Part shown: piece after piece, positions 1 to 25,937 of the stretch | Numbering within the stretch: the first letter of the stretch is position 1 | Layout of the letters: each line of letters opens with the position of its first letter | Source of the DNA: the human T2T-CHM13v2.0 reference genome, Homo sapiens | Assembly: GCF_009914755.1 (NCBI RefSeq) | Contig: NC_060926.1 | DNA length: 64,000 bases | Direction: 5' to 3' (one strand) | Notes under the pieces: model-generated | Databases searched by the model: none | What the model saw: only the letters and a program-made list of their open reading frames with translations | Told to the model about the DNA's origin: nothing | Made by a program: the position numbers and the translations under genes

Positions 1-199
1 TGTGCATTTGTATTATGTATTTTTTATGCTTAAAACACATTTTAAGAAAAACCGAAGATTTTATTTTTTCTTTTTAACAGCTGAATCCAAGAATCCTAGG
101 ACACTCTTAATTTGTCCCAGAAGTGTGAAGTCCACCTAGGGCATAGCCGTGAAGGGCTCCCAGAACTGTACGGGGAATTTTGAGGCTGGGGTACCGCAG

Positions 200-700
200 T
201 GAAGTGCAGCTCACCCGGGCGGAGCGCACCTGACCTGGCTTCCACACCTGGTGGAGCGCCTGGGAGGCCTCGCGGATAAAGCCCCGGGCAGCGCGTGACC
301 CGCCCCAGCCCAGTAGTGGAGTCCCCGCCGCGGGCCCCTTGCTTGCAGGGTAGGTGTGGCCCGGTCGTCCCACTCTCCGCCCCCTCCTGCTCCTCCTCGC
401 CGTGCCCAACCCGCCCGCTTCTCCTGCCTAGGCTCTTCTTTCTGCTCCTGTCGCCATGGCCCCGGCCTCGGCGCTCAAGCGACCCTCTCGCTCCGCCCAG
501 GTCAGTGAAGGATGGGATGCAAGTGCCCGCCAAGCCCCCCGTTTCCCACGTGGAGTTCCCACAGGGCAGCAGGGAGGGGCCGCGCCTTCTCTAACTGACC
601 CGAACCGACCCGGGCTTCACAGGCTTCGTGGAGAGCAGCTGCCCCGCCGGCATCTTCCGGATGAGGCTCTCTAGACAACAAAGCCTTCTACGCGGAAGTT
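200..700 (+). promoter_or_regulatory. CpG-rich promoter region at the 5' end of the ZP pseudogene / overlapping lncRNA
   Basis: High GC and CpG density; GGGCGG 217-222, CACCTG E-boxes 227-232 and 245-250, GATAAA 275-280. Confidence 0.55.
432..500 (+). pseudogene. ZP pseudogene putative signal-peptide exon
   Basis: ctcctgcctag|..|gtcagt; LFFLLL then VAMAPASALK after a frame change. Confidence 0.45.
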
Positions 701-704
701 ACTG
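623..704 (+). pseudogene. ZP pseudogene exon (G)FVESSCPAGIFRMRL / LDNKAFYAEVT
   Basis: ttcacag|..|gtgaca; internal frameshift. Confidence 0.6.
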
Positions 705-1043
705 GTGACAGGGGAAGGACTCATGGGTTTTTGCAGCCCGGTGTCCCCAAAACAACCTCCTGACCCCCAGCCCACCCAGGTTCCCTGCTAGCCCGCCCAA
801 CCCAGAAAGACTGGCCTGCCTGGGGTCCAGCAAGGATACAGAATCGCGCAGCTGCCCCCCACAGCCTGCCGCCCAGCATCGGTTCTCCCACCCATCTGCC
901 TGTCCCCACCCGCTATGAGACGCCCTGGGTCTGCTTCCCTGGGACCAGCCCTCAGCGTTGCCTTAAGTGATTCTGGTGCCAGGGACTCTGAGGACCCCCA
1001 GGCTCCTCCAGGCTGGCAGGTGACCATACTCCTTCCACTGCAG

Positions 1044-1161
1044 ACCCCTGGATGCCCAGCTGCCGCACCTCCCGTGGCCCCACGCTGTGGCTACGTGTTG
1101 TCTGAAGACGCCTGGGGAAACCTTCAGGGCCTCTGTACTGGCCTGTCATGTGGTCAACCAG
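1044..1161 (+). pseudogene. ZP pseudogene exon APRCGYVLSEDAWGN / FRASVLACHVVNQ
   Basis: ccactgcag|..|gtgagc; ZPAX-type 'QCGY..WGN..FRAS..SCH' motif; frameshifted. Confidence 0.8.
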
Positions 1162-1949
1162 GTGAGCAAGCTTCTGAGATGCCCTTGTTCAATTGCCCAG
1201 GAAACAGGTGTCCAAGATTCATATGGAAGAAATCTGGCCCTGCCCTCAGCACTGAGGACATTTGGGGAATCCAGCATCCCCTCCTGGATGCAGATCGCTT
1301 CCGCCTGGCACAGGCTGTCTTCACAGCTGCAGAGTCCTCTTGTGTCTAAGAACAGAGACCACAGTTCCATCTTTGCCTTGCCAGGATTGACCTCTAATGA
1401 ATAGATCACCTTTGTAAGGTGGACCAAAAAAAAAAAAAAAAAGAGCATTTCCAGGTGGCTGTAACTGACAGCTGGGAACTGCCAGAGTGTGGCAGGAGGC
1501 CCAAAGCTGTAGGAGTTTAGAGGAAGCCGCATGCAGGCACCTTGCGCTCAGATGAGGCATGGGGTAGAACTGCAGATGAGAGCAATCAGAAGGAGACTCG
1601 TGGGATAGCAGGGTTTAACCTGGCTACGATGTCAGCAAGGTGGACGGGGAGACTGGGGCCCCAGCTATGCCTGGATTTAGGGGTTCAAAGGTATAGGGAG
1701 CTAGCAGGAGCACTTCAACAGAACAGAGGTGAGATTAGTGTCAGATCACTAAATCCTAAGTCTCTTCTGTGCATCTCTACCTGCTCTATTTCATCATGCT
1801 CCCTTCCCTGCACACCTCCAGCCGTCTGTCTACTAACAAGAGACCCGTACCTCAGTCCCACTGAGCCAGGTGGGACTGGGCCAAACCTCCCTATTTGATT
1901 CTTGCCTCATCTTCCCTGGGACTTCGGTGCTTTCTTGCCCTTCTTCCAG

Positions 1950-2094
1950 GATAATAGATGGTTTTCCCTCAGTGTGAACATCGAGGTGTCTGGGTTCATG
2001 GAAGCTGGTGAAGAAACCACCTACAACTATACCATGTCCTGTCCCTATTTCACATGGGCCTCGAGGAAGATTCTCTGAAGGGAACTACATGGAG
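1950..2094 (+). pseudogene. ZP pseudogene exon [26 protein letters not shown](CE)GNYME
   Basis: ttcttccag|..|gtgagc; 145 nt, consistent with a 2-nt loss that creates TGA at 2076-2078. Confidence 0.85.
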
Positions 2095-2291
2095 GTGAGC
2101 ACAGGTAACCCCAGCCAGAATGCTGGGTCTCCTGGGGCCGAAACTACCTCCTTCGTTCTATGAAGTGAGGCCACACTTGATATTTTCATGGAACCAAGTC
2201 CCTTAGTACTTAAGCCTTATCAGCCATGAAATATAGACCCTTTTCGGGAAACAAGATTTGATTAAGTTGAAAGGAAATCAGAATGTCAGCG

Positions 2292-2912
2292 ATCTCTGCA
2301 CTCCTATGGTCATTGCAGCACTATTCACAATGATATAGAATCCACCTAAGTCCCTCTCAGTCCCTCAGTTGGATGAATGGATAAAATGTGAAATAGATTA
2401 GATACACACACACACACACACACACACACAGGAATACCATTCAGCCACTTTTAAAAAATGAAATCCTGTCCCTTGCAGCAACGTGGATGAACCTGGAGGT
2501 CATTATGTTAAGTGAAACAAGCCGGGCACGGAAAGACAAATACCACGTGACCCCACTCATTTGTGGAATCTGAAAAAGCTGATCTCAGAAGTAGAGACTA
2601 TAGAATAGTGGTTCCAGGTAGCTGGGAAGTGTAGGAGAGATAGGTTAAAAGGTACAAAATTCCAGTTAGGAGGAATAAGTTTTAATGTTCTATTGTACAG
2701 TAGGGTGACTATGGTTAACAATAGTATATTGTATATTTATCATATTTATAATTTATATTGTATATTTATAAGAGGATTTTGAATGCTCTTACCACAAAGA
2801 AATGATAAAGGTTTGAGGTGATGGATACGCATTACCCCGATTGGATCATTACACATTGTAAACATCACACTGTATCCCATAAATATGTACAGTTATTATG
2901 AGTCAATTAAAA
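2292..2912 (+). mobile_element. L1MA-type 3' end fragment with (CA)n at ~2404-2430
   Basis: ttgcagcactattcacaat..tggatgaacctggag..tgaggtgatggata..aattaaaaata. Confidence 0.85.
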
Positions 2913-3321
2913 ATACAACTTCAAATCTTGATTTAGGTTGGCAGGTAAGGAACAGAGGCCTAAAGGTAGGTGGGCTGTACACAGTCATCATCCAACCACG
3001 TGGCTCATTGCTGTTGCCTTGGGCTCAGAAGTAGCATCAAAGCTGGTGCCCCAACCAGGCCCTCGGCCCTTAGGATATCTCATGAGAACCTAGGTCCCAA
3101 CAAGAAAGGCCATTCCTATGAATGACGTGACCCTTAGGCTGCATCCCTGCTCCAGGAGATGTAACTGGACCTGTGTGGGTATCTGCTGGGTCAGGTCCTG
3201 GGAATCTGCATTTACAGCCATGTGGTGTAGGGATCCCAAAGGAGAGGCTAAGACACTTGTAACTGGAGGAGGGGAGGGGAGTCAGGAGACAGAGCTGCAT
3301 GAAGAGCTTGCTTGTTGGCAG

Positions 3322-3409
3322 GTGTCTGTGAGGATCAAAGTGCCCATGGTTTCTGAAGCCCAGGACCCTGAGCAATGGATGTCAGCATTGGCTGGATGCA
3401 CTCCCCATG
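3322..3409 (+). pseudogene. ZP pseudogene exon VSVRIKVPMVSEAQDPEQWMSAL
   Basis: ttggcag|..|gtagga; continues NYME|VSV. Confidence 0.75.
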
Positions 3410-3981
3410 GTAGGACTGAGGACTGACCAAGCAATCCCTGGCCAGCCCACATGGACCTGCCTACCACTCTCCCATACAGTGTGCAGGTAGCCTGCAAGCA
3501 ACATCACAGCCTTCAAATTCCCTGCAGCCTATTGAGATCCTAGAGACAGGAGCCCCACCTGTCTCATCTTGCCTACCTGGGGAGGTACCCCTGTCTTTGC
3601 CAGTCTTGCCTCCAACTGGGAGCCTCTTCTGCCGGTCCTCTCTGCTGAGCCCTGCTCACACCGAGCCAGGTGGTGGAGGGACAGTGAGGGTTGCTGAGTG
3701 AAGCTATGTAACTTGTACAGCCTGCACAACTCCAAGCAGTAGCCCTGTGTCTAGTATTTTTTGGGGGGAGATTCTGGTCAGCCTTGATTTTTGGGCCTTT
3801 TTAGTGTTCTATCTTGCCAACTTAGTAAAAGATCTGGTTGTCTTGCATTTGAGAGGAGATGAGAGAAGCAAGTACCTCTTTTTTGTAAGAACAAGTAAGT
3901 GAACAAGTGCCTCTTTCCTGCCTTGCATTCAACTCCTTAGATCTCCTTGATTGCACGGTCAACCCCGCTCCTGTCTGTCAG

Positions 3982-4144
3982 GCTCAGGAACCACTTACAA
4001 GCTATGGCAGGTGATGTTCCAGCATCCCACAGGGAGGATTATGCTGGTGAGCCACATGGCCAAGCAGGACTATGGCTTCAACAGCTCTGGGGCCTGCATG
4101 TTCCTGCATTAGCCCTACTCCAGCAATGAGGCTGAAGTTACCAG
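3982..4144 (+). pseudogene. ZP pseudogene exon TYKLWQVMFQHPTGRIMLVSHMAKQDYGFNSS..FLH*PYSSNEAEVT
   Basis: ctgtcag|..|gtgagt; TAG at 4110-4112. Confidence 0.8.
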
Positions 4145-4247
4145 GTGAGTTTCATCTACCCCACTCTAATCCTTGGGAGAGCGAGAGTGGGGACAGATCA
4201 GGAGGATGCTCTTTAACTGACATCTGTGAGCTCTGAGCACAGAGTAC

Positions 4248-4270
4248 TATTAGGTTGATGCAAAAGTAAT
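4248..4270 (+). mobile_element. Truncated MADE1/Hsmar1 terminal inverted repeat fragment
   Basis: TATTAGGTTGATGCAAAAGTAAT matches the mariner TIR start; no partner TIR seen. Confidence 0.55.
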
Positions 4271-4679
4271 CTCAGCTTGGTCAAATAGCTTAAGTCTGCT
4301 TTTATCTTTATGAGCAATTCTAATCAAAACTGGTCATGTTCCAGGGAGCAAATAGATTAATGTGGGAGCAAATAGATGAATGTTTTCAGGATTTAGGCAT
4401 CTGGTCTTACTTATAGGAAGTTTATTTCATCTCAAACAACTCCTGTATCATCTTCTCTAGGTTTTAATATAACTCAATACCTGCCTCTCTCTAAAGAGTG
4501 CCCCTGGGTAGGACTGAGGTGTGATCTCATGGGGTGGTATAACATCACAGCTGTAACTCCAGCTAGAAGTTTGTCTCAATCCCGATTGGCTGGCCAGCTA
4601 TGGTTTTCTAGGGAAGGCAGTTGGCGAAGTGCCTCATCCACAGCACACCTCTCATCTGCTGCCTCTTTGTTTCTCATAG

Positions 4680-4820
4680 AGTGACATCATGGTATCTGGT
4701 GCAAGCTATAGCATCCACCTATTCTTGGAGCACACGTGGTCAGACACTGATTGGCATGTGACCAAGTTGATGGTGGTCAAAACAGAACTCCTTTCATGCC
4801 CACAAGCTTCAGTATTACTA
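4680..4820 (+). pseudogene. ZP pseudogene exon [34 protein letters not shown] / TPFMP
   Basis: ttctcatag acceptor; donor degenerate, so the 3' end is approximate. Confidence 0.75.
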
Positions 4821-5215
4821 TGTTCCCTGCCACTTCCGTTGAAGTTTTGCAGGATTGGGATGATCCTTTGGTGTGAACGAAGCCCCAAAGAGGACCACGT
4901 GGAGAGTGCCTGGTAGGTCTTAGTGTGTACAGCAGGAATACTGACTTGGCATAAGGGCTCAAGTTTTAGCAAGTACAGCCCATCCCATCTGGGCCAGCTT
5001 CTACCTTTAGGCCTCAATATGCCCATAGACTGATTCAGTTTGAGTTCTGATCACTTGTAGCCTGTAACTAAGGGCTAGGTAAGTGCATTCAGAGTTCTGT
5101 CAAAAGTGTGATCTTGATATTTAGAAGTAAAAGCTTCAGAACATCAACTTTCTAGCCTATCATCCAATTAATGCTTAAAAACATGATATAGACCTTCCTT
5201 TAGAACTATCATTCA

Positions 5216-5520
<305 letters not shown>

Positions 5521-6110
5521 CTATTATTCAGACTCTAATGTGATTGAATAACTTTCGGTCCTGAGGAGAGACAACAGTAGTAAGGATTCTTTTGACCTCC
5601 ATGAGCCTATAATCTACACAAAGAAGATTGTGGTTAGCCCTCACATGCGAGCTTATTTTTTTGTGTTCAGCCGCTACTTAAGCCAACATACAAAGGGACA
5701 AAGCTGGATAAATTGCACTCTTACCTGGGATGGTGAGGCTAGTATGTTAGTGGTTATTTGCATAAGGAATGGCTGGCAATTTTTGACTGATGCTGCTGGG
5801 TTGCCCTCGGGTTTATGAATGGGCTTATGTTCTCAAAATGGCCCTCGCTGATCACATCCTTCCTGTGGTTCCTCACTCGGCCTTGTTCCTGAGTTACTGG
5901 CTAAAGAAGGATTGACTCTAAGAGACAAGAGCATCTTTGGGGGGAAAGGGGAGAAGATTATCAAAGGACACAGACACCCCTAGTCCTTTCTAGTCCCCTC
6001 ACAGGAAAGAGAAAACAGGATGCTCTTAGCTCTGAGGACTTAATTAAGGGAGACTGGGAGAGTCTGTTGCCGGTAAACCACAGGCTGTAATAGATGAGAA
6101 CTTCCAACAG

Positions 6111-6318
6111 ACACGGTCCCTGGGACAAGACTCTTCAACATCACCTTTGGAGCTGTCTTCCCTGGTGACCAGTTGGTGGCAATGGGGATCAGAACTGTGC
6201 CCTATCCTATTTCAGAAGTGGATGAACCTGGGTATAAGGTTTGGGAAATTTCCCTCCCAGATGGAACACAAAGGTTTGTGCTTGAAGTGTCCTTGATGAC
6301 ACAGAAGTGATTAAAGAG
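6111..6318 (+). pseudogene. ZP pseudogene exon [39 protein letters not shown] / DDTEVIKE
   Basis: ccaacag|..|gtcagc; 208 nt, with a 1-nt loss near 6293. Confidence 0.85.
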
Positions 6319-6754
6319 GTCAGCCAGTGCTCATGTCCAGGTAAGAAGCTGTCAGTTTGGACAGATCCTCTGCCCAGCAGATAGCTTACCAGATAGTGTT
6401 ACCTGCTGGGCAGGTAACATACTTCATAGGCAGAGCTCTCACCCACCCCACCCTCACAGGTCATTAAATTACATGAGCACGTCTTGTCTAATCTAGCTTG
6501 GCAGGCTGGAGCAGTTTGAAACACTGTAATGGAGAGACCAGTAGCCACTCGAGTACGTGACAGAGTGGACATCCTCATTGGATTGAGGTCTCAAGCCCCC
6601 CATCAGGTGGTGGGCACACAAGGACAGGGCCTACTCTGCTATGCTGTCCAGCCTGAGCAGATGCTGTAAGGGGGCAGGAGGCTGTCCTAGGGTCACTACC
6701 CAGAAGTGGCTTCGTAAATTCAGGCAGCCTTTTGCTCAGCATGGCTCTAAGCTA

Positions 6755-7335
6755 TGGTCAACCTGAAATAATTGAAAGGATCAGAATCCAGTTTTAAAGA
6801 GTTTATTCAAGCAAAAAGCTGGGAATGACCATACAGGAAACAGACTTCAGAGAAATGGAATAAGTGCTCCGAAGTTAAAAGTTAAGGTCTTGCTTATATA
6901 GGCAGAAAATAAAGAAATTCAGTAGGATTTTATCATTTTCTATACAAGGCTGTTTTATGAGTTACAATTTAGTTTGTTTTCTTTTCCATAAAGTTTGTTT
7001 TCTTTACAGCTTGTTTTCATTTCCTTTCCAATTTAAGAGTAGTTAACATTCCATCTTAGACAATCCCATAGCCATGAAGACTTTGTGTGGAAGAGGAAAG
7101 AGGGAAGTTAATCTATACTGAATATCAACAGTTAAGAGGGAAGGGGTCTTCCCTGGCACCCTTTAGTCATTTACAACATTTTACAAAACATGTAGGTAAG
7201 AAAAATGACCAATCTGTAATCAGAAACAAAGGTTACAGCTGCATGTTTATGTGACTCAGGTCCTATAATCACATTCCCTTAAGGCTCAAAATGTTTTGAG
7301 GTTCTAACAGCTTAGATTTTGAATTACTTTACTCT
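6755..7335 (-). mobile_element. ERV1-class solo LTR (MER57/MER51-like; subfamily uncertain)
   Basis: tcaacctgaaataa..aaagagtttattcaagc..ttccttaaggctcaa pattern. Confidence 0.6.
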
Positions 7336-7373
7336 ATCCATCACTTGCAGACTGTTCCTGTGATGTCTTCTAG

Positions 7374-7491
7374 TACATGAACAGGAATGAAACCCACTAT
7401 GTCCTCCATGTGAACTACATGCTGAGCGTGGGTCCAGATGGGAAACCATTCTCCTACCCTGCAGAAATGGTATATAGTTTCAAGGATGTGG
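7374..7491 (+). pseudogene. ZP pseudogene exon [39 protein letters not shown] (open)
   Basis: gtcttctag|..|gtaagt; 118 nt, no stop. Confidence 0.8.
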
Positions 7492-8647
7492 GTAAGTACA
7501 CCAAGTGAGGTGCTGGTCCTGGACTCATGGATGGTCTTGGTACCCAACAAGTTACACTGGCTCTGTCCAAACAACAGCTGTGGAAGCCCCTCCCATGGGA
7601 GGGGGGTCCCACTGGGGCTACACAGAAGTAACTCCTCACAAGTGGCTTGTCTGCATCCTGGGATTGGAAACCCAGTATAGAAGCAGCTGTTGGCAGACTC
7701 ATGAAGTAATACAGAGAATGGGTGGCTGCTCATACAATCAGCAGTAAGACTTCACTTAAATCATGCCAGGAATGACATGAACAGGACTCTAAGTACCCCA
7801 TACAGTCTTCCCTCCCAGGTGCCACCACCCCTGAAATATTAACCTTGGTAGACTTCTCCTGTCAAGGTCACAGTAAGGGTAGCCAGTGGTATCAAGACCT
7901 TGGTATAAATCAGACATGGCCTTCTTCCCAGCAAGGTCATTAGGTACCCAATGTAGAGATAGCAGGGAAAGGATATAAAAACAGGAAAGTTCCAGGTGAG
8001 TCATCTTTTGCCCCTTGACTAGGCCTGCCTATAGGTTTGACAGCTCCAGGAAGTAAGAAAACAGGTATATTGTCTTCCTTCCTATAGCTCTGCTAGGTGT
8101 CATCCTCTTAAGGTCACTAGGATTCTAGTGTTGAAGGCTTGCTGCCACACAGATGGCACTGTTCTATCCTCAAAGCATTTTCAGGGTGCCATCTAATGGG
8201 TCTGAATCCTGGTTCCATTGCAAACTTTAAGCAAGGAACTTAGCATTATCCAATCCCCATTTTCTCCAACTACTGGCCCCCTCTAAGGAGGCTGAAGAGT
8301 GAAAGCATGTTGAACACCAAGATGCTCTCCAAAGATGGAGTCCTTCTCTTCTGAGCCCCACAGCTCTGCAAGATGGGTAAAACTCAAGGTGGCATTAGGC
8401 TCTGAGAGGAGCTCCATCACACAGCTGGCATAGTATGGAGCTGGACCAGAGCCCAAATCCCCTATCTCCCCACTGTCCTAACCAAAAGCTTACACTTCAG
8501 AACCCAAGGCCGTGAACACAGACCTCACACAGCTGTAACCTGAGAAACTGCCATTGCTGATCTAGTGCCAGAACCGCTTCCCCATCCCTGGCTTTCCTGC
8601 TGACTTCCCACGAGATAAGACTTTTCTTTAAAAAGGGGGCCTTCTCA

Positions 8648-9550
<903 letters not shown>

Positions 9551-9632
9551 AGGCATCTCACTTAAGGGCCTTCACACTAGGGCTCCAGTGGAAAAGTAAA
9601 AGGGCCAAAGGGGAGTGATGAGAAATGGATGC

Positions 9633-10741
9633 TTGGGAGAGAATAGGCCTCCAACAAGATTCTTCAGTCTTGGTATGCCAAGGCTGGACAATAAGGAGAA
9701 TCGGACCCCAACCTGAGTCCCATTTACCCATTGTGTACTTTTCACAGAAATTCCCTAGGCCATTGGCACCTGTGACAGTGAGAACCTATACTTGGCCATC
9801 CCAGTAACTGACCCGCTCTCCTGTTGGGAGCTCTACATGGGACACTGGCACCTGAGCCGTAGGCCAGGACCCCTTGACATAGTCCTCATGACAGATAACT
9901 CCACCCATCTGCTGTTGGCAGTGCAACTCTTTTCTCCAGGGGCGCTGTATGAGGGGGTCCCCCGAGGGCTTAAGCTGGTTGACGGGCTAAGGAGGGTGGA
10001 GAGAAGTTGTGCAGCCACTGTCCTGGGCCATCAGTCACAGCGGTGTGTCACTTCAGACACAAGGAAGTGCCTGGATGGTCTTGGTGCCCAACAAGTTGCA
10101 TTGGCTCTGTCCAAACAGCGGCTGTGGAAGCCCCTCCCAGGCCAGGGGTGCGGGCTTGAGCAATCCCTGTCCAGTGTTCTCGGGGAGCAGAATGTATGGT
10201 ATCTAATACAGTCTACAACAGCATTTGTGAGGAATGGCCTGTGTTTGGGTGCATGTCATGCCATTAAAATCCCTAGAACTAGAAAGAAGTGGCTTCCAGA
10301 TCCCAGGCCCCCTGGGCGACTCTCAGCATCCTGGGCCCCACAGACCTCAGCTGCCAGATCTGCCCCAATGGCCAGGACTGCGTGGCATCTGTTTCTGATG
10401 AAACTGAACCCAGCTGTGGGGTGGGTCCCAGGATCTCTCCCTCCAGAGGATTTGCGCCCAGCTTGAGGTGGCCCCAAAGAAAACTGACATGCTAGAGACT
10501 CCAGAAACCTTCTCCATGGATTTACCCCATTGGGAGAGAAAAGGCCTCCAACAAGACTCTTCAGTCTTGCTATGTCAAGGCTGGACAATAAGGAGAATCG
10601 GACCCCAACCTGAGTCCCATTTACCCATCCTGTACTTTTCACAGGACTTCCCCAGGCCATTGGCACCTGTTACAGTGAGAACCTATACTTGGCCACCCCA
10701 GTAACTGACCTGCTCTCCTGTTGGAGCTCTACATGGGACAC
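9633..10741 (+). repeat. Direct repeat, ~212 bp (9633-9845 vs 10530-10741)
   Basis: Hand alignment gives ~12 substitutions and 1 indel. Confidence 0.95.
9748..9953 (+). pseudogene. ZP pseudogene exon [37 protein letters not shown]
   Basis: ttttcacag acceptor; TAG at 9756-9758; donor reads GG instead of GT; overlaps ORF 9792..10466. Confidence 0.8.
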
Positions 10742-10778
10742 CAGCTCCCATGCATTTATCCCTCTTCAGACCTCACTG
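10432..10778 (+). pseudogene. ZP pseudogene exon split by a duplication: [29 protein letters not shown] (10432-~10520) + CIYPSSDLT (10751-10778)
   Basis: cccag acceptor; G|gtgaga donor in phase with the next exon (V|CFPSG). Confidence 0.7.
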
Positions 10779-11566
10779 GTGAGAAGCTGGGCTTCTGGGT
10801 CCCCATGCTGCTTCATCCCACCTCCCAACCCTGTCTTCAGGCCCACTGCTGATCCCAGTCTAGAACCACAGCACCGCCCCCATCCTGCATGAAGAAGGCC
10901 TTGTGCATCTGCCTTGGTGAGATCTTTCCAGGCTGACTGGTCTGTACTCCCTGGGGAGATGATCGAGACCAGCTCACACTGCTGTGTGTCACATCCATAT
11001 CTTCTATGGGAAAACTAACCCCCCTCGCCTCCTATGTGAAGTCTCAGGCTTCACAGCCCATTTCAAATGCTGTTTCTCCTATAACCACATAGCCTGCCAA
11101 CCACTGGATCTCCTTTCTGGTTCCTCCCTCTCCCCCAACTTTTTCCTTTTGAACTCTCATAATCAGAGCCATAACCATTTTCTGCCTTGCACTAGTTACT
11201 TGTCCTTGACTGTCTTTATTTTCCCTTCTGAGCTGACTTTCTTGAAGGCAGGGCCCCCAACCTGATCACCATGCCTCAGATAGTATCCAGGTTTTGCCTT
11301 CAGCCCCTCAAATAATACAAATAAAAATGAACAAATTCCAATATTTATCCACAACCTACTTGATGGCCTAAAAATGCATTTTAAATGGGTGTGTCTGAGG
11401 TAACTTGTGAAAAGCCCTGGGGTCAGGAGCCAAGTCCTACCTCAAGGAGCAGCATAAAGGCTTAGCCCAGCCTCGTCCAAGGACTGCCAGGTAAAATAGA
11501 GAACAGACTTTGATCAAAATATGGTTGGAAACAGGATGGTTGTGAGAACTATGGTTGTGTTCCTAG

Positions 11567-11733
11567 TGTGTTTCCCTAGTGGGACTGTGGCCATCTCTTC
11601 CATGATGGCCACAGACCCTTCCATTGACATGTGCAAGGCCACACTGAAGGATTGCACCTGCAAGCCAACAGAGTCTAGCAGCAACCAAACCTTCTTCTGA
11701 CTTGACGTCACCAGCCGTGGTACCTCAGTGAGG
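11567..11733 (+). pseudogene. ZP-N exon [54 protein letters not shown]
   Basis: gttcctag|..|gtgagt; ZP-N pattern C..G..L.D..CKP..F.....CGT, with the last Cys changed to Arg; TGA at 11698-11700. Confidence 0.85.
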
Positions 11734-11807
11734 GTGAGTAAGGCAAAAGGGCCACCTGCTCCTGCCAGGCCTTAGCATACCATCTAAGCTTTTTCTTCTC
11801 AGTCCTG

Positions 11808-12167
11808 TGGTATTGTTCCATTTTCACACTGCTGATAAAGACATACCTGAGACTGGGCAATTTACAAAAGAAAAAGGGTTAATGGACTGACAGTTCCACA
11901 TGGCTGGGGAGGCCTCATGATCATGTCAGAAGGTGAAAGGCATGTCTCACATGGCAGCAGATGAGAAGAGAAGACTTGTGCAGGGAAACTCCCCTTTAAA
12001 AAACCATCAGATCTCGTGAGACTTATTCACTATCACAAGAAAAGCACAGGAAAGACCTGCCCCCATGATTCAATTACCTCCCACTGGGTTCCTTCTACAA
12101 CATGTGGGAATTGTGAGAGCTACAATTCAAGATGACATTTGGGTGGAGACACAGCCAAACCGTATCA
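11808..12167 (-). mobile_element. THE1-type MaLR solo LTR
   Basis: ttttcacactgctgataaagacatacc..cagccaaaccgtatca. Confidence 0.9.
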
Positions 12168-12207
12168 CCCATGTCCTCCATATGCTCTAAAATCTTGGGT
12201 TATGTAG

Positions 12208-12307
12208 TTTGAAGGTGACTATATTATATATGAAAAGGGAATCATGTATGAGAAGGAACCCTTGCTATGAAGGGCTGGCCCACAATTACAAGATATCCAG
12301 ACTACAG
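12208..12307 (+). pseudogene. ZP-N exon FEGDYIIYEKGIMYEKE / PTITRYPDYR
   Basis: ttatgtag|..|gtgaga; matches ZP 'YENEI..ITRDP.Y'; frameshift. Confidence 0.8.
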
Positions 12308-12884
12308 GTGAGATGGCCACTGTATGAATGGAAGTCAGCTGTGCCCCTGAGCTTCATCTCACTGTTGTCCCCACCCCTGTCCTCAGGAAATTCCAGCTGA
12401 CTAGGGAAGAGAATGCCAGTGTATAGTTTGCAGCAGGAGGAACTCAAAACATCAGTGACAGTGCCCCAAAATGCTTCAGTTTCCATGTTCTCTTTTTCAT
12501 TTTTTAGGTCCTATTTTACTTCCTTACCTAATACTTATTATATTGGAGGTATGATGTAAATTGGAGTAATACTGACAGACCTTCTTCTTTGATAGACTAA
12601 GCAGTGTTGCTAGAAACAAATCGTTGCATAACTAAATCATGATCCACCATGCACATAGCCCACCAACCAATGGAGAAGACCAGCAGAACAGATAGTAGGC
12701 TATCTCTTCCAGCCTCAAGCCCCAATGCTGTCATTCCTAAGTTGAGACGTTGAAGTCTCTTTGCCTCCCTGGTACAGAGTCTGTTTGCCTTGTCTTGTCC
12801 ATGAACCAGAGTTCCTTCAAGTCCTTTCTTACTCTGCAGTTCTACAAACCAGTGAGCCTGCTCTTGCCTCCATGCTTGTCCTAG

Positions 12885-12950
12885 GCTGATGCTGCTCTGC
12901 TACTACTCAGTTAAAGAAACATTGGCCCAAGAGGACAGGCACAAGGACAG
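12885..12950 (+). pseudogene. ZP-N end exon [13 protein letters not shown]
   Basis: gtcctag acceptor; ZP 'RL...C.Y' motif; donor approximate. Confidence 0.7.
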
Positions 12951-13096
12951 GTGGAAGAAGAAAGCTGTCCTGCCACCAGGAGATGGCATGGTGGTATGGC
13001 AGTCCCAGGTCCGAGGTCAAGGAGTGGCTGGGGAACAGAGGGAGAACTTTGAGTATTTCTGCCTGGGTGCCCTCAGCTTGACATTCTCTCATTCAG

Positions 13097-13151
13097 CAGG
13101 GCCTCAGAGAGAGCAGACAGACACTGGAGATCCAGGCAAGAGTAGCTCAAG
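13097..13151 (+). pseudogene. ZP linker exon [10 protein letters not shown]
   Basis: attcag|..|gtaagg; ZP 'L.V.MRLAKD' pattern, in phase with the next exon. Confidence 0.7.
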
Positions 13152-13238
13152 GTAAGGGTGTTCTGGAGTATACTTTGGGGGACAAAGGGCAGAAGAAGAA
13201 AGTTGTCCATGAGTTCACCAAGCCCTTCCTCTCTTAAG

Positions 13239-13419
13239 ATGAGTCGTTCATTGAGTTTCACCATGGGGAGATGGCCATTGTGAATCAGCCATAGTCAACA
13301 CTCTTTGAGGTAGAACTGATGAGCTTTGCAGATGCCTCAGCAGAATTACTCCTGGACAAGTGTTGGGTGTCAGAGTCACCAGAATTTGATGGCAGCCCCC
13401 AGTGGAACATAATAAATAG
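13239..13419 (+). pseudogene. ZP-C exon [52 protein letters not shown]
   Basis: ctcttaag|..|gtacat; hallmark ZP-C 'FEVEL..L.L..CW....P.W.II..C'; TAG at 13292-13294. Confidence 0.9.
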
Positions 13420-13538
13420 GTACATATCCTCAGCTAGCAGCTGAGAGGGCAGAACCAGAACCCCAGTCCTACCAGATATAGCCCAAGATTCTGTAAGAAT
13501 ATCTTACATGCTAAAGCAAGATCCCCAAAGTGAGGACC

Positions 13539-13901
13539 TGATATGGTTAGGCTGTGTCCCCACCCAAAATCTCATCTTGAATTATCCCCACAATCCCCAC
13601 TTGTCAAGGGCAGGACCAAGGGTGGAGGTATGGGGGCAGTTTCCCCGGAGCTGTTCTCATGATAGTGACTCTCACGAGATCTGATGGTTTTATAAGTGTC
13701 TGACATGTCCCCTGCTTGCACTCACTCCATCCTGCCACCCTGTGAAGGAGGTGCCTGCTTCTCCTTTGCCTTCTGCCATGATTGTAAGTTCCCTGAGGCC
13801 TCCACAGCCATGCAGAACTGTGAGTCCATTAAACTTCTTTCCTTTATAAATTACCCAGTCTCGGGTATTTCTTTATAGCAGTGTGAGAAGGGACTAATAC
13901 A
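13539..13901 (+). mobile_element. THE1-type MaLR solo LTR
   Basis: tgatatggtt..ggactaataca with 5-bp TSD GGACC. Confidence 0.92.
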
Positions 13902-14147
13902 GGACCAAATCTCCCAATAGATCTGAGTCTACCAAATGAGACTTCCATCACTTCTGTGCAGCTTCTCAGTTAGGAACTTCCCCTGACTTCTAACAGCCTC
14001 AAGCCCCCGCCCCAGTCCTACTCATACTTCCTCATGTATAAGAAAGGGTCAGCCAGTCCTCACCAGTCCTCAGATAACTACTGGAATGGACACAAGGTTT
14101 CTCCAGAGTGCCTCACTCCTTGTTTGTCTCCAAATTCTTCCTGACAG

Positions 14148-14268
14148 CTGCAAAAAAGAGAATAACCTGCTAGAGGTAGACTTTTACCCTGTCTCCCAGG
14201 GTGAGAAGGTCCAATACCCCTCATTGGTCAAGAAGCTGGTGAAGTTTGTGGCACCCAGATTCAAAGAG
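14148..14268 (+). pseudogene. ZP-C exon CKKENNLLEVDFYPVSQGEKVQYPSLVKKLVKFVAPRFKE
   Basis: cctgacag|..|gtgaga; ZP 'GC..D...F.PV......PS..KRF' pattern. Confidence 0.85.
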
Positions 14269-15090
14269 GTGAGATCTCAGAGAACCAGAAAGGGCTAAAT
14301 AGGAACCTAGATTCCTGTTTATATGGCCAGTATGGGGACACTGAGCAAAGTCCCTGGGAGCCCCAGGTCCCAAGTACTTCCTAGGCTTTTATAAAGAGAT
14401 CTGGATGACATGTCCTGCTTGGTGACTTGGCATCAACGTTTAGAAGTCAAGTCTGACAGATGGCAACTGGTAACCAGATTAAGCATGGAGGGTGGGGACA
14501 GGGCAGCCTAGCATGAGTGGGACCCTAGCTGATCCTCTGCTTAGACAGTTGTTGACTCTGTGACCTAAACAGGTCATGTCTCCTTTTTGAACCTTACCAC
14601 CTTCTGCAAAATGGAGCATTAACGTTAAAGTCACTGAAGACTTTAGAAGTATTGATAAAGCATTCAATAAGTAGACTTCCTAAGAGGAAACGAAACTGAC
14701 TCATTCCTGATCAACACCCTCAGAATAATCCCATTTCATGCCTAGATGCAGGAGGAAGCTCATTATCTTCCCCATCCCATTCTCACACTTTAACTCCTCC
14801 TCTCCTCCTCTTGTCTCCTTGAAGAAAGCCTGCCCTCTTACTAAAGCCAGTTGGGAAGAGGTCCCATAAGGCTTTTGTCTTAGGAAAAAGTGTGGGTGGG
14901 AAGGAATTGTTGTTGGGTCACTCTTGGTTTCCCAAGGCCCTGAGACAGGAACTTCTGTTCCTGCTAGAACAGAATGGCCTCTGCCCACACCGAGCTCGAG
15001 ATGCTGTGGAAGCTTCCAGATCCTTGGCTCCTTAAGGTTTGTCCTGCTGTAATGCTCAGTCTTCTGCTATTCACCCACTTCCATTCTCAG

Positions 15091-15181
15091 GTGTATCTGT
15101 ACCACCTGACCCAATCCTGCCTACACTTGGACCCTGACGGGCATTGTGGTGGCCAGTACTATCCAGAGGAGAGAGAAGGAG
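15091..15181 (+). pseudogene. ZP-C end exon VYLYHLTQSCLHLDPDGHCGGQYYPEEREG
   Basis: attctcag|..|gtaaga; degenerate ZP 'VY.HC...C......C...C'. Confidence 0.75.
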
Positions 15182-15643
15182 GTAAGAGCAGGCCCCTAGC
15201 CACGTGTCCAGTAGCAACACTGAGAAGTTCTGCCCCAAAGGTCCTGCCCATAAAGTTCTCTGCACTTTCCCCCTCCATCCCTCCAAACAAACTCACCCTT
15301 CTGAAAGCTGCCTCAAGTCCTGACCAGATGGCACCCTCCTGCAGAAGTCCCTGAACAGCAAGCACTCTGCATGTCATGCCTACATCTCAGCCTGAGGAAC
15401 TCTTGAAGAGGCCTTTCCTCCAGAGCTGAGTGAGCTCTAAGAGCTCTTTGGCCAAAAACCCCTGGCTCTTGCCCATCACACTTGCCTAGTGTCTGGCTAC
15501 GATAATTTTCAGGCATTTTATGAAACATTTAACAAGTCTGATTACCCTTCTAGGAGACAGTCCTAGAATAGAGGTCATATGAACATAGATCTTAGTCCTC
15601 CTGCCTCAGTGAGTCCCTCACCCCATACACACCTTGAACTCAG

Positions 15644-15917
15644 GCCAGAAGAGAGCACTTGACCATCTGGCTCTGGTTCCAGTGACTCCAGGACTTATAT
15701 GCCCACAAGCCAAAAGAAGATCAAGATCTGAGTGGGAACTGTGGAAAGCATGTCATGCGAGCCCCTGCCGCCCTTGAAACTCTGCGTTCCTCCTCCTCAA
15801 AGAACAGTGCCTGAAGGTCCTGGCTGTGGCCCTGGCTGGCCATCTTGCTTCCTGGTCACGGTGGTGGCCACTGTGCTGGTCCTGTCCAAGATGACCTGTA
15901 CATCATTCCATGAATGA
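15644..15917 (+). pseudogene. ZP C-terminal propeptide exons: (G)QKRALDHLALVPVTPGLI (from 15644) and frameshifted TM LKVLAVALAG / CFLVTVVATVLVLSK..* (15803-15917)
   Basis: Acceptors at 15642-3 and 15801-2; dibasic site, hydrophobic patch and TM-like run appear in the expected order. Confidence 0.55.
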
Positions 15918-19879: not shown

Positions 19880-20226
19880 AAGTAGTTCTTAAACTTGAGT
19901 GTGCCTCAGACTCCCCAGGGGCCTTGTTAAAACACAGATGGCTAGACCCTACCCCCAGGGAGCTAGATTCACTTGGCTTGGGGTAGGGCTGATATTTTGC
20001 ATTTCTAACATGGTCCTAGGTGCTGCTGGTCCATAGACCATGTGCTGAGAACCAGTACTACAGACAGTGCTCCCCATACTTTAGTGTGCGTATGAACCGC
20101 CTGGGGGCCTGGGTAAAGTGTGAGCTCTGATTCAGCAGGTCTGGTACAGGGCTAGGGATCTGCATTTCTAACAAGCTCCCAGGTGATGCCAATGCTGCCG
20201 GTCTGTGGTCCCCATTCAGTAGCAAG
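19880..20226. mobile_element. Two adjacent MER5-type hAT elements
   Basis: tctgcatttctaacaagctcccaggtgatgc motif and a diverged second copy. Confidence 0.7.
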
Positions 20227-25719: not shown

Positions 25720-25937
25720 CAGCCTAGACAATGTGGTGAAACCCTATCTCTACAAAATATACAAAAATTAGCTGGGCATGATGGCGCATGCCTATAGTCC
25801 AAGCTACTTAGGAGGCTGAGGTGGGAGGATCACCTGAGCCCAGGGAGGTCAAGGCTGCAGTGAGCTGTCATCAAGCTACTGCAATCCAGCCTGGGCAACA
25901 GAGTGAGACCCTGTCTCAAAAAAGAAAAAAAAAAAAC
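25720..25937 (+). mobile_element. 5'-truncated AluJ-like element
   Basis: cagcctagacaatgtggtgaaacc..gtctcaaaa. Confidence 0.85.

What the first reader, a model, noticed from the sequence alone, without database searches (positions are those of the whole stretch)
316..15917. Near-complete fossil of a ZPAX/ZPY-type egg-coat gene hidden in a 'non-coding' region
Seen: about 20 plus-strand segments bounded by AG/GT splice together, in colinear order and mostly compatible phase, into a signal-like segment, a long N-terminal region, ZP-N ([26 protein letters not shown]), ZP-C ([30 protein letters not shown]) and a C-terminal tail. Known: ZPAX-family genes encode large egg-envelope glycoproteins in fish, amphibians and birds and have no functional human copy. 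Inference: this is a unitary pseudogene. Motifs such as YMNRNETHY and ENLYLAIPV resemble my recollection of the avian ZPAX2/ZPY paralog more than ZPAX1. I recall that a human ZPAX pseudogene has been reported, so its existence may be known. The paralog identity and full exon reconstruction may not be.
Basis: partly seen in the sequence, partly recalled or inferred. Interest (0 to 1): 0.9.

Follow-up and report, generated by a model that had tools for sequence, protein, structure and literature searches.

The report
Dead human egg-coat gene (ZPAX-type), LINC00954
The stretch is the decayed remains of an egg-coat (zona pellucida, ZPAX-type) gene that humans lost but wallaby, platypus, birds and reptiles still have; it is still transcribed as the "non-coding" RNA LINC00954, and that humans carry such a dead gene was already reported in 2008.

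Summary
Observation confirmed. One exon (13295-13441) passes Pfam's ZP-C cut-off on its own. An intact 972-aa tammar wallaby protein (P0005), a platypus protein and an elephant protein align to the + strand from about 427 to 15917. They form one colinear chain of 18 exon-like blocks. Chain scores are 1653-1746, against 408-562 for reversed, shuffled, opposite-strand and other-DNA controls.

The copy is dead. It has 4 in-frame stops, at least 9 frameshifts, no start codon, about 100 codons with no detectable trace, and a 229-nt insert that includes a duplicated upstream segment inside one exon.

The LINC00954 RefSeq exons mostly end where the homology blocks end. It is therefore a transcribed unitary pseudogene.

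In a tree the relic pairs with elephant inside an amniote-only clade (all 100% SH-aLRT). That clade is distinct from two other ZPAX-like clades.

A human ZPAX pseudogene is already in print (Goudet 2008, seen only as cited by others). No searched paper links it to LINC00954. Interest is low to moderate.

The parts
402..720 (+). E1: relic of the first coding exon (signal-peptide-like segment and start of the mature protein), inside a GC-rich (62-72% GC) promoter-like region. LINC00954 exon 1 is 402-500.
   Evidence: tblastn matched wallaby aa 11-40 to 427-510 (53% identity; E 0.21 on its own) and elephant aa 32-46 to 631-675 (73%). The chain alignment needs 3 or more frameshifts here. No ATG precedes the signal-like segment in its frame (ORF 280-594). 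GC content.
1044..1161 (+). E2: AG/GT-bounded and identical to LINC00954 exon 2.
   Evidence: 28 of 34 residues identical to elephant. Two frameshifts: 14 extra nt at 1063-1076, and one at 1121-1123.
1950..2094 (+). E3: identical to LINC00954 exon 3.
   Evidence: 67% identical to elephant over 46 aa (E 2e-14). Frameshift at 2074/2075, with a stop in the old frame at 2076.
3322..3390 (+). E4: coding-exon relic that the lncRNA does not use. No GT follows the homology block.
   Evidence: Platypus aa 157-179, 65% identity, E 5e-5. Flanks read.
3941..4144 (+). E5: identical to LINC00954 exon 4.
   Evidence: Platypus aa 193-242, 60% identity, E 3e-13. In-frame TAG at 4110 and a frameshift at 3990.
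4145..4679 (+). Interval where about 100 codons (wallaby aa 244-346) should lie. No match rises above controls, so they are deleted or decayed.
   Evidence: Local chain scores were 49.5, 37 and 34.5, against control maxima of 48, 54 and 75. A possible trace lies at about 4525-4590.
4680..4819 (+). E7: its 5' end equals the acceptor of LINC00954 exon 5 (4680-4912). The lncRNA donor lies 93 nt beyond the homology.
   Evidence: 83% identical to elephant over 30 aa, E 1e-12. Frameshift near 4784.
6107..6318 (+). E8: coding-exon relic not used by the lncRNA. GT follows at 6319.
   Evidence: E 2e-19 to elephant and 5e-12 to wallaby. Frameshift at 6292.
7374..7491 (+). E9 (holds YMNRNETHY). The acceptor AG is at 7372-7373. 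The donor is the same as that of LINC00954 exon 6, which starts 23 nt upstream at 7351.
   Evidence: 69% identical to elephant over 39 aa, E 3e-12. No stop or frameshift.
9748..9953 (+). E10 (holds ENLYLAIPV).
   Evidence: 65% identical to elephant over 71 aa, E 1e-22. In-frame TAG at 9756. No GT at its 3' end.
10432..10779 (+). E11: split into 10432-10518 and 10745-10779 by 229 extra nt (10516-10744). Within these, 10530-10741 is a 94% copy of 9633-9845 (intron plus the 5' part of E10).
   Evidence: Repeat found. The chain join of 10515 to 10745 has no protein gap.
11560..11733 (+). E12: start of the ZP-N domain of the ZP module. Its donor equals that of LINC00954 exon 7 (10770-11733).
   Evidence: E 2e-17 to wallaby aa 617-675, which lie in its Pfam ZP-N domain (625-716). 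In-frame TGA at 11698. A conserved Cys is replaced by Arg.
12208..12307 (+). E13: ZP-N continued (holds ITRYPDYR). AG/GT-bounded.
   Evidence: Frameshift at 12258.
12885..13020 (+). E14: end of ZP-N (holds LLCYY) and the linker.
   Evidence: 77% identical to elephant over 22 aa, and 49% to wallaby and platypus over 45 aa.
13097..13151 (+). E15: short linker exon, followed by a good GTAAGG donor.
13239..13420 (+). E16: ZP-C core exon (holds [17 protein letters not shown]).
   Evidence: Pfam PF00100, E 3.6e-7. Best solved relative is the mouse ZP2 ZP-C domain 5bup, E 5.9e-4. In-frame TAG at 13292.
14148..14268 (+). E17: ZP-C continued (holds FYPV). Identical to LINC00954 exon 8.
   Evidence: E 6e-4 to platypus.
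15091..15181 (+). E18 (holds VYLYH). Identical to LINC00954 exon 9. A conserved Cys is replaced by His.
15683..15917 (+). E19: relic of the last coding exon (membrane anchor and short tail), at the start of LINC00954 exon 10 (15683-16580). The match is weak.
   Evidence: The chain alignment places wallaby aa 911-967 and platypus aa 949-975 here, with several frameshifts.
402..16580 (+). LINC00954 (NR_033875.1): the spliced transcript of the relic.
   Evidence: Annotation supplied with the finding. Splice dinucleotides checked.

Best explanation
Window 402-15917 (+) is a unitary pseudogene, meaning a gene that died in place with its introns. Its parent was a large ZP2-like egg-envelope glycoprotein gene of the ZPAX group.

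The ancestral protein, as still encoded in tammar wallaby, platypus, birds, turtles and squamates, has these parts in order: a signal peptide, N-terminal Ig-like/ZP-N repeats, a ZP module (ZP-N plus ZP-C) that polymerises into egg-coat filaments, and a C-terminal membrane anchor.

In human the reading frame is destroyed many times over, so no ZP protein can be made. The locus has kept a GC-rich promoter region around the old first exon and most of the old splice sites. It is therefore still transcribed and spliced, and is annotated as the lncRNA LINC00954.

Shown: the homology, the colinearity, the lesions, the coincidence of lncRNA exon ends with homology-block ends, and the clade placement.

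Inferred: that the promoter and splice sites are the ancestral ones (no orthologue's gene structure was available), that this is the same locus as the ZPAX pseudogene of Goudet 2008, and that the RNA has no ZP-related function.
For: Family: one exon passes Pfam ZP-C on its own, and its best solved relative is ZP2 ZP-C.

Orthologues: a search of 1.84 billion representatives with that exon returned the 972-aa tammar protein P0005 (62% identical in the exon) and the 946-aa coelacanth protein P0014 (57%). Both carry Pfam ZP-N and ZP-C.

Colinearity: 17 of 18 tblastn HSPs (E<1) of P0005 lie in order on the + strand at 427-14241. Elephant P0100 and platypus P0015 give the same chain, with exon identities up to 83%. 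Chain scores are 1653-1746 against 408-562 in all controls.

Disablement: TAG at 4110, TAG at 9756, TGA at 11698 and TAG at 13292 are seen with every reference that covers them. There are at least 9 frameshifts, in E1, E2, E3, E5, E7, E8, E11, E13 and E19. No ATG precedes the signal-like segment. About 100 codons leave no trace above controls. A 229-nt insert containing a duplicated upstream segment splits E11. Only 60 of 83 covered near-invariant columns are kept, against 104-113 of 113 in intact genes.

Transcription: by my reading, 14 of the 18 internal splice sites of NR_033875.1 fall at the ends of homology blocks.

Clade: human plus elephant 100, within mammals 100, within an amniote-only clade 100 (SH-aLRT; 66 rows by 949 columns). 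This was repeated on 26 rows. Chain-score excess over the reversed control is 793-1306 for 10 of 10 clade-A proteins, 145-470 for 8 of 8 clade-B and 280-458 for 7 of 7 clade-C.

Literature (passages read): ZPAX pseudogenes are reported in human, chimpanzee, macaque and cow (PMC8005149, PMC3434135, PMC4092215). The chicken ZP-domain vitelline-membrane protein gene LOC421956 carries the NCBI symbol LINC00954 (PMC6839265).
Against: Only 1 of the 150 single frames scanned reaches any ZP Pfam model. The ZP-N exon alone finds nothing in Pfam or in PDB sequences.

The E1 and E19 matches are weak (E 0.07-0.2 alone, or seen only in the chain). The chain aligner has a high noise floor (about 400-560), and it also strings together short spurious blocks.

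Synteny in other species was not tested. I have no orthologue gene structure, so calling the splice sites 'ancestral' is inference.

I never saw Goudet 2008 itself. That their pseudogene is this locus is therefore inferred.

One paper (PMC10864564, passages read) reports a 49-aa peptide from LINC00954 with effects in a lung-cancer cell line. The locus may therefore not be wholly without product, although that ORF is not in a ZP reading frame.

Three of the 14 hits (P0003, P0012, P0013) are repetitive proteins that do not look like ZP proteins. I did not check them with Pfam.
Confidence: 0.93

Rival explanations
1. The relic descends from a different ZPAX-like paralogue. One candidate is the lineage that holds the frog (Xenopus P0170), coelacanth, lungfish and second squamate/turtle copies (my clade B). 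The other is the lineage with sharks labelled 'ZPAX 1', bowfin, caecilian copy b and one turtle (clade C).
For: Clade B and C proteins also give chains above their controls: coelacanth scores 927 against 458-534, and Callorhinchus 934.5 against 477. The ZP-C exon is 57% identical to coelacanth, against 62% to wallaby.
Against: The tree puts the relic inside clade A with 100% SH-aLRT at three nested levels. Comparing turtles only, the chain excess is 873-971 for clade A, 145-175 for clade B and 337 for clade C.
Confidence: 0.03
2. The locus is not just a fossil. It now works through its RNA or through a new small peptide (the published 49-aa LINC00954-ORF), and that role explains why the promoter and splice sites survive.
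For: PMC10864564 (passages read) reports detection of a 49-aa product and growth effects on over-expression in A549 cells. Splice sites and a GC-rich 5' region persist despite heavy coding decay.
Against: The only 49-codon ATG...TAG frames on this strand lie at 7531-7680 and 2885-3034. Both are outside the RefSeq exons, and the spliced RefSeq transcript holds no 49-aa ORF. The evidence is from one over-expression study in one cell line. Retention of splice sites in a unitary pseudogene needs no selection over this time span. I have no cross-species conservation test of the RNA.
Confidence: 0.07
3. The apparent gene is a chance pattern, or a processed (retrotransposed) copy.
For: Most single frames have no database match on their own.
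Against: Chain scores are three times every control. The exons are spread over 15.5 kb and separated by introns that hold Alu elements. AG/GT flanks are present.
Confidence: 0.005

Closest known systems
Human ZPAX pseudogene (Goudet, Mugnier, Callebaut & Monget 2008, Biol Reprod 78:796). I know it only through passages in PMC8005149, PMC3434135 and PMC4092215.
   Same: A disabled ZPAX-type gene in human, also reported in chimpanzee, macaque, cow and dog. This locus is very probably the same one.
   Different: I could not read the paper, so I cannot confirm its coordinates, exon map or synteny. No paper in the searched library holds both 'LINC00954' and 'ZPAX' (0 papers).
Tammar wallaby 'uncharacterized protein' P0005 (972 aa). 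The reviews call the tammar gene ZPAX (PMC8005149 and PMC7155028, passages read).
   Same: It has the same exon order and the same domains. Per-exon identity to the human relic is 46-61% in the better blocks. Both sit in the same mammalian clade.
   Different: The tammar gene is intact, while the human one has stops, frameshifts, a lost start codon and a missing segment. That P0005 is the published tammar ZPAX is inferred: it is the only tammar protein in the listed rows of either search (120 of 191 and 120 of 383 shown).
Elephant G3U767_LOXAF (P0100, 713 aa, 'ZP domain-containing protein')
   Same: It is the nearest relative of the relic: 66% identity over 504 columns, sister at 100% support.
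   Different: It is an open, partial gene model that stops before ZP-C. It keeps 86 of 98 covered near-invariant columns, which is fewer than intact genes keep. It may be a decaying copy or a poor model.
ZP2 (zona pellucida sperm-binding protein 2)
   Same: It has the same architecture: N-terminal Ig-like/ZP-N repeats followed by a ZP module. Many orthologues are auto-named 'ZP2-like', and ZP2 is the best PDB match to the ZP-C exon.
   Different: It is a separate subfamily that is functional in human. No ZP2 sequence was in my tree, so the root of the ZPAX-like clades is not fixed.
lncRNAs that are relics of lost protein-coding genes (Hezroni 2017, PMC5577775; the 2023 MBE loss-relic study, PMC10195156)
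   Same: This is the same kind of object: a unitary pseudogene annotated as a lncRNA.
   Different: LINC00954, ZPAX and 'zona pellucida' do not occur in the supplementary files held for either paper (4 files and 1 file). Their main texts were not searched for these terms.

Membership tests
ZP-module proteins (Pfam ZP-N PF23344 plus ZP-C PF00100) | ZP-C domain | tested here: met
   Frame 13295-13441 hits PF00100 at E 3.6e-7, 30.8 bits against a cut-off of 24.6, covering profile positions 36-74 of 133. Only part of the domain is in that exon. E17 and E18 align to the rest of the orthologues' ZP-C.
ZP-module proteins (Pfam ZP-N PF23344 plus ZP-C PF00100) | ZP-N domain with four conserved cysteines | tested here: inconclusive
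   The single exon frame gets no Pfam or PDB hit. However, 11560-11736 aligns at 61% (E 2e-17) to wallaby aa 617-675, inside its Pfam ZP-N domain 625-716. By my reading of the alignments, three of the four cysteines are kept and one is Arg.
ZP2/ZPAX-type egg-coat proteins | N-terminal array of extra Ig-like/ZP-N domains ahead of the ZP module | tested here: met
   The orthologues carry PF23736 (Ig_ZP2) and PF26562 (Ig-like). Human blocks E2-E11 align colinearly to that part. Pfam does not detect these domains on single human exon frames.
ZP2/ZPAX-type egg-coat proteins | Signal peptide and C-terminal membrane anchor | tested here: inconclusive
   Weak colinear matches at 427-510 and about 15825-15902. 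No predictor was run, and the start codon is absent.
Functional gene of that family | One open reading frame across the exons | tested here: not met
   4 stops, at least 9 frameshifts, an insert in E11 and a missing segment.
Unitary pseudogene | Introns kept and disabling lesions present | tested here: met
   18 blocks spread over 15.5 kb with AG/GT flanks and intronic Alus. Lesions listed.
Unitary pseudogene | Lies at the position of the functional orthologue in other species (next to TTC32/WDR35) | not testable with these tools
   No vertebrate genome was reachable. There are only hints. Chicken chr3 at about 101.4 Mb holds LAPTM4A, MATN3, WDR35 and TTC32 (PMC9412053). Chicken ZPAX is listed with VSNL1, SMC6, GEN1 and MSGN1 among copy-number regions (PMC4092215). 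Chicken LOC421956 bears the symbol LINC00954 (PMC6839265).
Unitary pseudogene | No intact copy elsewhere in the same genome | not tested
   The human genome was not searched. The reviews list only ZP1-4 as functional in human (PMC8005149).
'ZPAX' versus 'ZPY' subfamily (Feng 2018, PMC6262864) | Groups with the frog protein that gave the subfamily its name | not testable with these tools
   No sequence labelled Xenopus ZPAX or ZPY, or chicken ZPAX, was obtained. The one Xenopus laevis protein found (P0170, unnamed) is in clade B, not with the relic. Source labels of 'zona pellucida AX' sit on a sturgeon protein (in the lineage that groups with clade B) and on two sharks/rays (clade C), and on none in clade A.

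The most novel reading that the evidence does not exclude
What is called 'ZPAX' in amniotes, including the human relic LINC00954, may be a separate, old paralogue that survives only in amniotes. It would not be the orthologue of the frog and fish genes that gave ZPAX its name. The human loss would then be the loss of a third ZP2-like lineage.

In my trees clade A is sister to a gnathostome-wide clade C. Placing it inside the tetrapod part of C is rejected (p-AU 8e-5). That test used a 26-row set and the plain LG+G4 model, and the group was named after I had seen the tree.

In addition, the elephant still has an open partial model with 88% of near-invariant residues kept. Decay in placentals may therefore have been gradual and lineage-specific, rather than one event in their common ancestor.
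Probability: 0.3. Interest if true: 0.4.

Novelty: already known. Interest (0 to 1): 0.25.

Why it matters
The finding shows that a human "long non-coding RNA" used in cancer-signature papers is the still-spliced carcass of an egg-coat gene. This matters for how LINC00954 and its claimed micropeptide are interpreted. It also gives a base-level lesion map for dating the loss of this ZP gene in placentals.

The loss itself has been textbook knowledge in the zona pellucida field since 2008, so the gain is annotation detail. There are three additions: the link to LINC00954, the exon map with its lesions, and the placement in an amniote-only clade.

Tried and rejected
- Goudet 2008 could not be read because it is not held.
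- A word-indexed search with the ZP-C exon alone found only a read-through ORF of near-identical DNA from an unnamed record (P0001).
- The ZP-N exon alone found nothing in PDB sequences.
- ESM Atlas look-ups of a clade-C and a clade-A protein gave only generic 'ZP2-like' cluster names and no help with naming.
- Apparent second copies in quail and Mauremys turned out to be isoforms, so the idea of avian tandem ZPAX1-3 could not be followed up. That idea is mentioned in PMC8508634.
- The AU test on the full 66-row set did not finish in three runs. I replaced it with a 26-row set under LG+G4.
- The interval 4145-4679 was searched for the missing 100 codons and nothing rose above controls.
- Rfam found nothing in the relic, only an Alu/SRP match at 25771-25919.
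- The supplements held for two 'lncRNA fossil' papers do not list LINC00954.
- The search of earlier findings was not open.
- Paper reading closed. As a result, the accession table of PMC9154058 and the six papers holding 'LINC00954' plus 'pseudogene' were not read. Those unseen files could settle the ZPAX/ZPY name.
- No structure or complex prediction was run, because none would change the verdict.

Full report
**What is there**

The window is human chr2 upstream of TTC32 and WDR35. The finding covers 316-15917 on the + strand, which the supplied annotation calls LINC00954.

I scanned 150 of the 154 + strand stop-to-stop frames of 33 aa or more in 1-17000 against Pfam. The first two and last two frames were dropped to fit the limit. 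Exactly one frame hit a ZP family: 13295-13441, PF00100 ZP-C, E 3.6e-7, 30.8 bits against a cut-off of 24.6. The few other weak hits are unrelated families below their cut-offs. Against solved structures the same exon is closest to the ZP-C domain of mouse ZP2 (5bup, E 5.9e-4) and to medaka choriogenin H. The ZP-N exon alone finds nothing.

**Finding intact relatives**

A word-indexed search with the ZP-C exon returned only a read-through ORF of near-identical DNA.

A full HMMER pass over 1.84 billion representatives gave 14 hits at E<=0.001.
- Two are full-length proteins of the right size with the match at the right place: P0005 (972 aa, 62% identity at residues 791-831) and P0014 (946 aa, 57%).
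- Five are short fragments (45-175 aa, 63-76% identity): P0004, P0006, P0008, P0010 and P0011.
- Three are fish multi-ZP proteins. Pfam shows ZP domains in all three, and trefoil in two (P0002, P0009).
- Three are repetitive proteins that do not look like ZP proteins (P0003, P0012, P0013). I did not check these with Pfam.
- One is the read-through ORF P0001.

P0005 is an 'uncharacterized protein' of the tammar wallaby and P0014 is from the coelacanth. Both have Pfam ZP-N and ZP-C. The relatives of P0005 include platypus LOC103167717 (P0015), elephant G3U767 (P0100, 713 aa, partial), Anolis LOC103280166, and many birds, turtles and squamates. Most are auto-named 'ZP2-like' or 'uncharacterized' (120 of 191 listed).

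**Colinear chain**

tblastn of P0005 against the whole window gave 18 HSPs with E<1. 17 lie on the + strand from 427 to 14241 in protein order, and one (E 0.36) lies at 19946-20077. The only break in order is a second copy of part of one exon. The best pieces are the ZP-N exon (11560-11736, 61% identity, E 2e-17) and the ZP-C region (E 5e-19). Elephant and platypus give the same chain and add pieces. Elephant is the closest, with 64-83% identity in the better exons.

I wrote a protein-to-DNA aligner that allows frameshifts and jumps. Over 1-17500 (+) it scored 1714.5 (elephant), 1746 (platypus), 1653 (wallaby) and 927 (coelacanth). The controls scored 408-562: reversed proteins, the minus strand, three other 17.5-kb parts of the window, and five shuffles each. 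The noise floor of this method is high and it strings short spurious blocks together. I therefore rely only on blocks that tblastn also finds or that all three references agree on.

**Exon map and lesions**

I can support 18 exon-like blocks, listed under 'parts'. AG and GT flank most of them.

Lesions seen with every reference that covers the site:
- In-frame stops: TAG at 4110, TAG at 9756, TGA at 11698 and TAG at 13292.
- Frameshifts in E1 (several), E2 (two), E3, E5, E7, E8, E13 and E19.
- 229 extra bases splitting E11.

Inside that 229-nt insert, 10530-10741 is a 94% copy of 9633-9845, which is the intron plus the start of E10. This explains why 'ENLYLA' occurs twice.

The frame holding the signal-like segment has no ATG before it. 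About 100 codons (wallaby 244-346) that should lie in 4145-4679 leave no match above controls.

Among 113 alignment columns that are at least 90% conserved in 64 non-placental proteins, the counts kept are:
- Human relic: 60 of 83 covered.
- Elephant model: 86 of 98.
- Wallaby: 104 of 113.
- Platypus: 111 of 113.
- Quail: 111 of 112.
- A turtle: 113 of 113.

The copy cannot encode a ZP protein.

**Relation to LINC00954**

The RefSeq exons 1044-1161, 1950-2094, 3941-4144, 14148-14268 and 15091-15181 coincide at both ends with homology blocks. Exon 5 shares its acceptor (4680). Exons 6 and 7 share their donors (7491, 11733). The last exon starts where the last coding block starts.

By my count 14 of the 18 internal splice sites sit at block ends. 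The exceptions are the donors at 500 and 4912 and the acceptors at 7351 and 10770. Exon 1 lies in a 62-72% GC stretch over the old first exon.

This is what a transcribed unitary pseudogene looks like. That these are the ancestral sites is inference, because I had no orthologue's gene structure.

**Which paralogue**

I built a tree of 65 proteins plus the human conceptual translation. The translation has 633 aa from 21 robust blocks, with X at stops. The method was IQ-TREE quick with LG+C20+F+G4 on 949 columns.

The relic pairs with elephant (100). This pair sits with wallaby and platypus (100), inside a clade of 14 rows that holds only amniotes (100). I call this clade A.

Clade A is sister (99) to clade C. 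Clade C holds sharks and rays that sources label 'zona pellucida protein AX 1', bowfin and sturgeons, a second caecilian copy and one turtle.

Clade B holds coelacanth, lungfish, a second copy in squamates and turtles, caecilians, and anurans including one unnamed Xenopus laevis protein.

A 26-row repeat under LG+G4 gave the same picture. Clade B grouped with a sturgeon lineage (one member labelled 'Zona pellucida AX') and a shark lineage (99). A tree forcing clade A to join the tetrapod members of clade C was rejected (p-AU 8e-5). That group was named after I had seen the tree, and this model rejects true clades somewhat too often. The same test on all 66 rows did not finish.

Independently of any tree, the chain score in excess of the reversed control is 793-1306 for 10 of 10 clade-A proteins, 145-470 for 8 of 8 clade-B, 280-458 for 7 of 7 clade-C and 290-377 for 4 of 4 fish/shark B-like proteins.

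Birds appear only in clade A in the listed rows of both searches. Entries that looked like a second quail or turtle copy are isoforms.

**Names**

The reviews say that a functional ZPAX exists in tammar and that ZPAX pseudogenes exist in human, chimpanzee, macaque, cow and dog (passages in PMC8005149, PMC3434135, PMC4092215, PMC7155028). P0005 is the only tammar protein listed in either search. Clade A is therefore most simply 'ZPAX' as mammalian workers use the word.

Feng 2018 (PMC6262864, passages read) splits off a 'ZPY' subfamily: Xenopus ZPY plus neopterygian and amniote genes. That paper names an Anolis protein and an Ensembl elephant gene as ZPY, and reports ZPY pseudogenes in zebra finch and alligators. 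Those statements fit either clade A plus C or clade B. I obtained no sequence labelled frog ZPAX, frog ZPY or chicken ZPAX.

What stands is that the relic is not in the clade of the frog sequence I have, nor in a clade carrying a 'ZPAX' source label.

**Synteny**

Synteny was not testable here. There are hints only:
- Chicken chr3 near 101.4 Mb holds LAPTM4A, MATN3, WDR35 and TTC32 (PMC9412053).
- Chicken ZPAX is listed with VSNL1, SMC6, GEN1 and MSGN1 among copy-number regions (PMC4092215).
- The chicken ZP-domain vitelline-membrane protein gene LOC421956 carries the NCBI symbol LINC00954 (PMC6839265). This implies that NCBI's pipeline pairs it with the human lncRNA.

**What is new**

The existence of the pseudogene is known. 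No paper in the searched full-text library holds both 'LINC00954' and 'ZPAX' (0 papers). Six papers hold 'LINC00954' and 'pseudogene', but I saw only their listing. The supplements held for two surveys of lncRNAs derived from lost genes do not list it.

The additions are the link to LINC00954, the exon and lesion map, and the clade placement. They are useful for annotation but not surprising. I score interest at 0.25 and novelty as 'already known'.

Noticed in passing
window 7531-7680 (+): This is a 49-codon ATG...TAG frame. It is one of only two such frames on this strand in 1-17000 (the other is 2885-3034). It is the likeliest site of the published 49-aa 'LINC00954-ORF' peptide (PMC10864564 gives a 147-bp hg38 interval). 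It lies 40 nt past the donor of RefSeq exon 6, in the intron, and not in a ZP reading frame. The spliced RefSeq transcript has no 49-aa ORF. I did not verify the mapping of hg38 to window coordinates.
   Followed up: partly
window 7528-7604 and 10072-10148 (+): A 77-nt direct repeat at 90% identity. One copy lies just after E9, overlapping the 49-aa ORF. The other lies in the intron between E10 and E11. Its origin (local duplication or a repeat family) was not worked out.
   Followed up: no
window 5216-5518 and 8630-9551 (+): Alu-like repeats: one copy in the E7-E8 intron and a run of three in the E9-E10 intron. They were identified by mutual similarity and the repeat mask, not by a repeat library.
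   Followed up: no
window 11810-12167 (+) versus 13900-13539: A pair of inverted copies about 360 nt long at 71% identity, flanking exons E13-E16. They are probably two old insertions of one repeat family.
   Followed up: no
P0100 (elephant G3U767), residues about 233-262: The elephant model departs from the otherwise near-invariant 'YKQRW...D...C' stretch. It keeps only 86 of 98 covered near-invariant columns, and 11 of 12 covered cysteine columns. By eye about four of its departures recur in human. The elephant copy may itself be decaying or mis-modelled.
   Followed up: partly
P0149, P0151, P0156 and other squamate clade-B proteins: Squamate and turtle clade-B proteins are short (about 745-820 aa). 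Their precomputed Pfam lists lack ZP-C (PF00100), unlike the coelacanth and amphibian members. This may be a lineage that lost the ZP-C half.
   Followed up: no
window 25771-25919 (+): An Rfam Metazoa_SRP match at the gathering threshold (70.2 bits against 70), inside a masked repeat. It is an Alu, not an SRP RNA gene.
   Followed up: no
P0004, P0006, P0008, P0010, P0011: Short ORFs (45-175 aa) in the representative library that are 63-76% identical to the human ZP-C exon. They look like the same exon read from relics in other genomes. Their sources were not examined.
   Followed up: no
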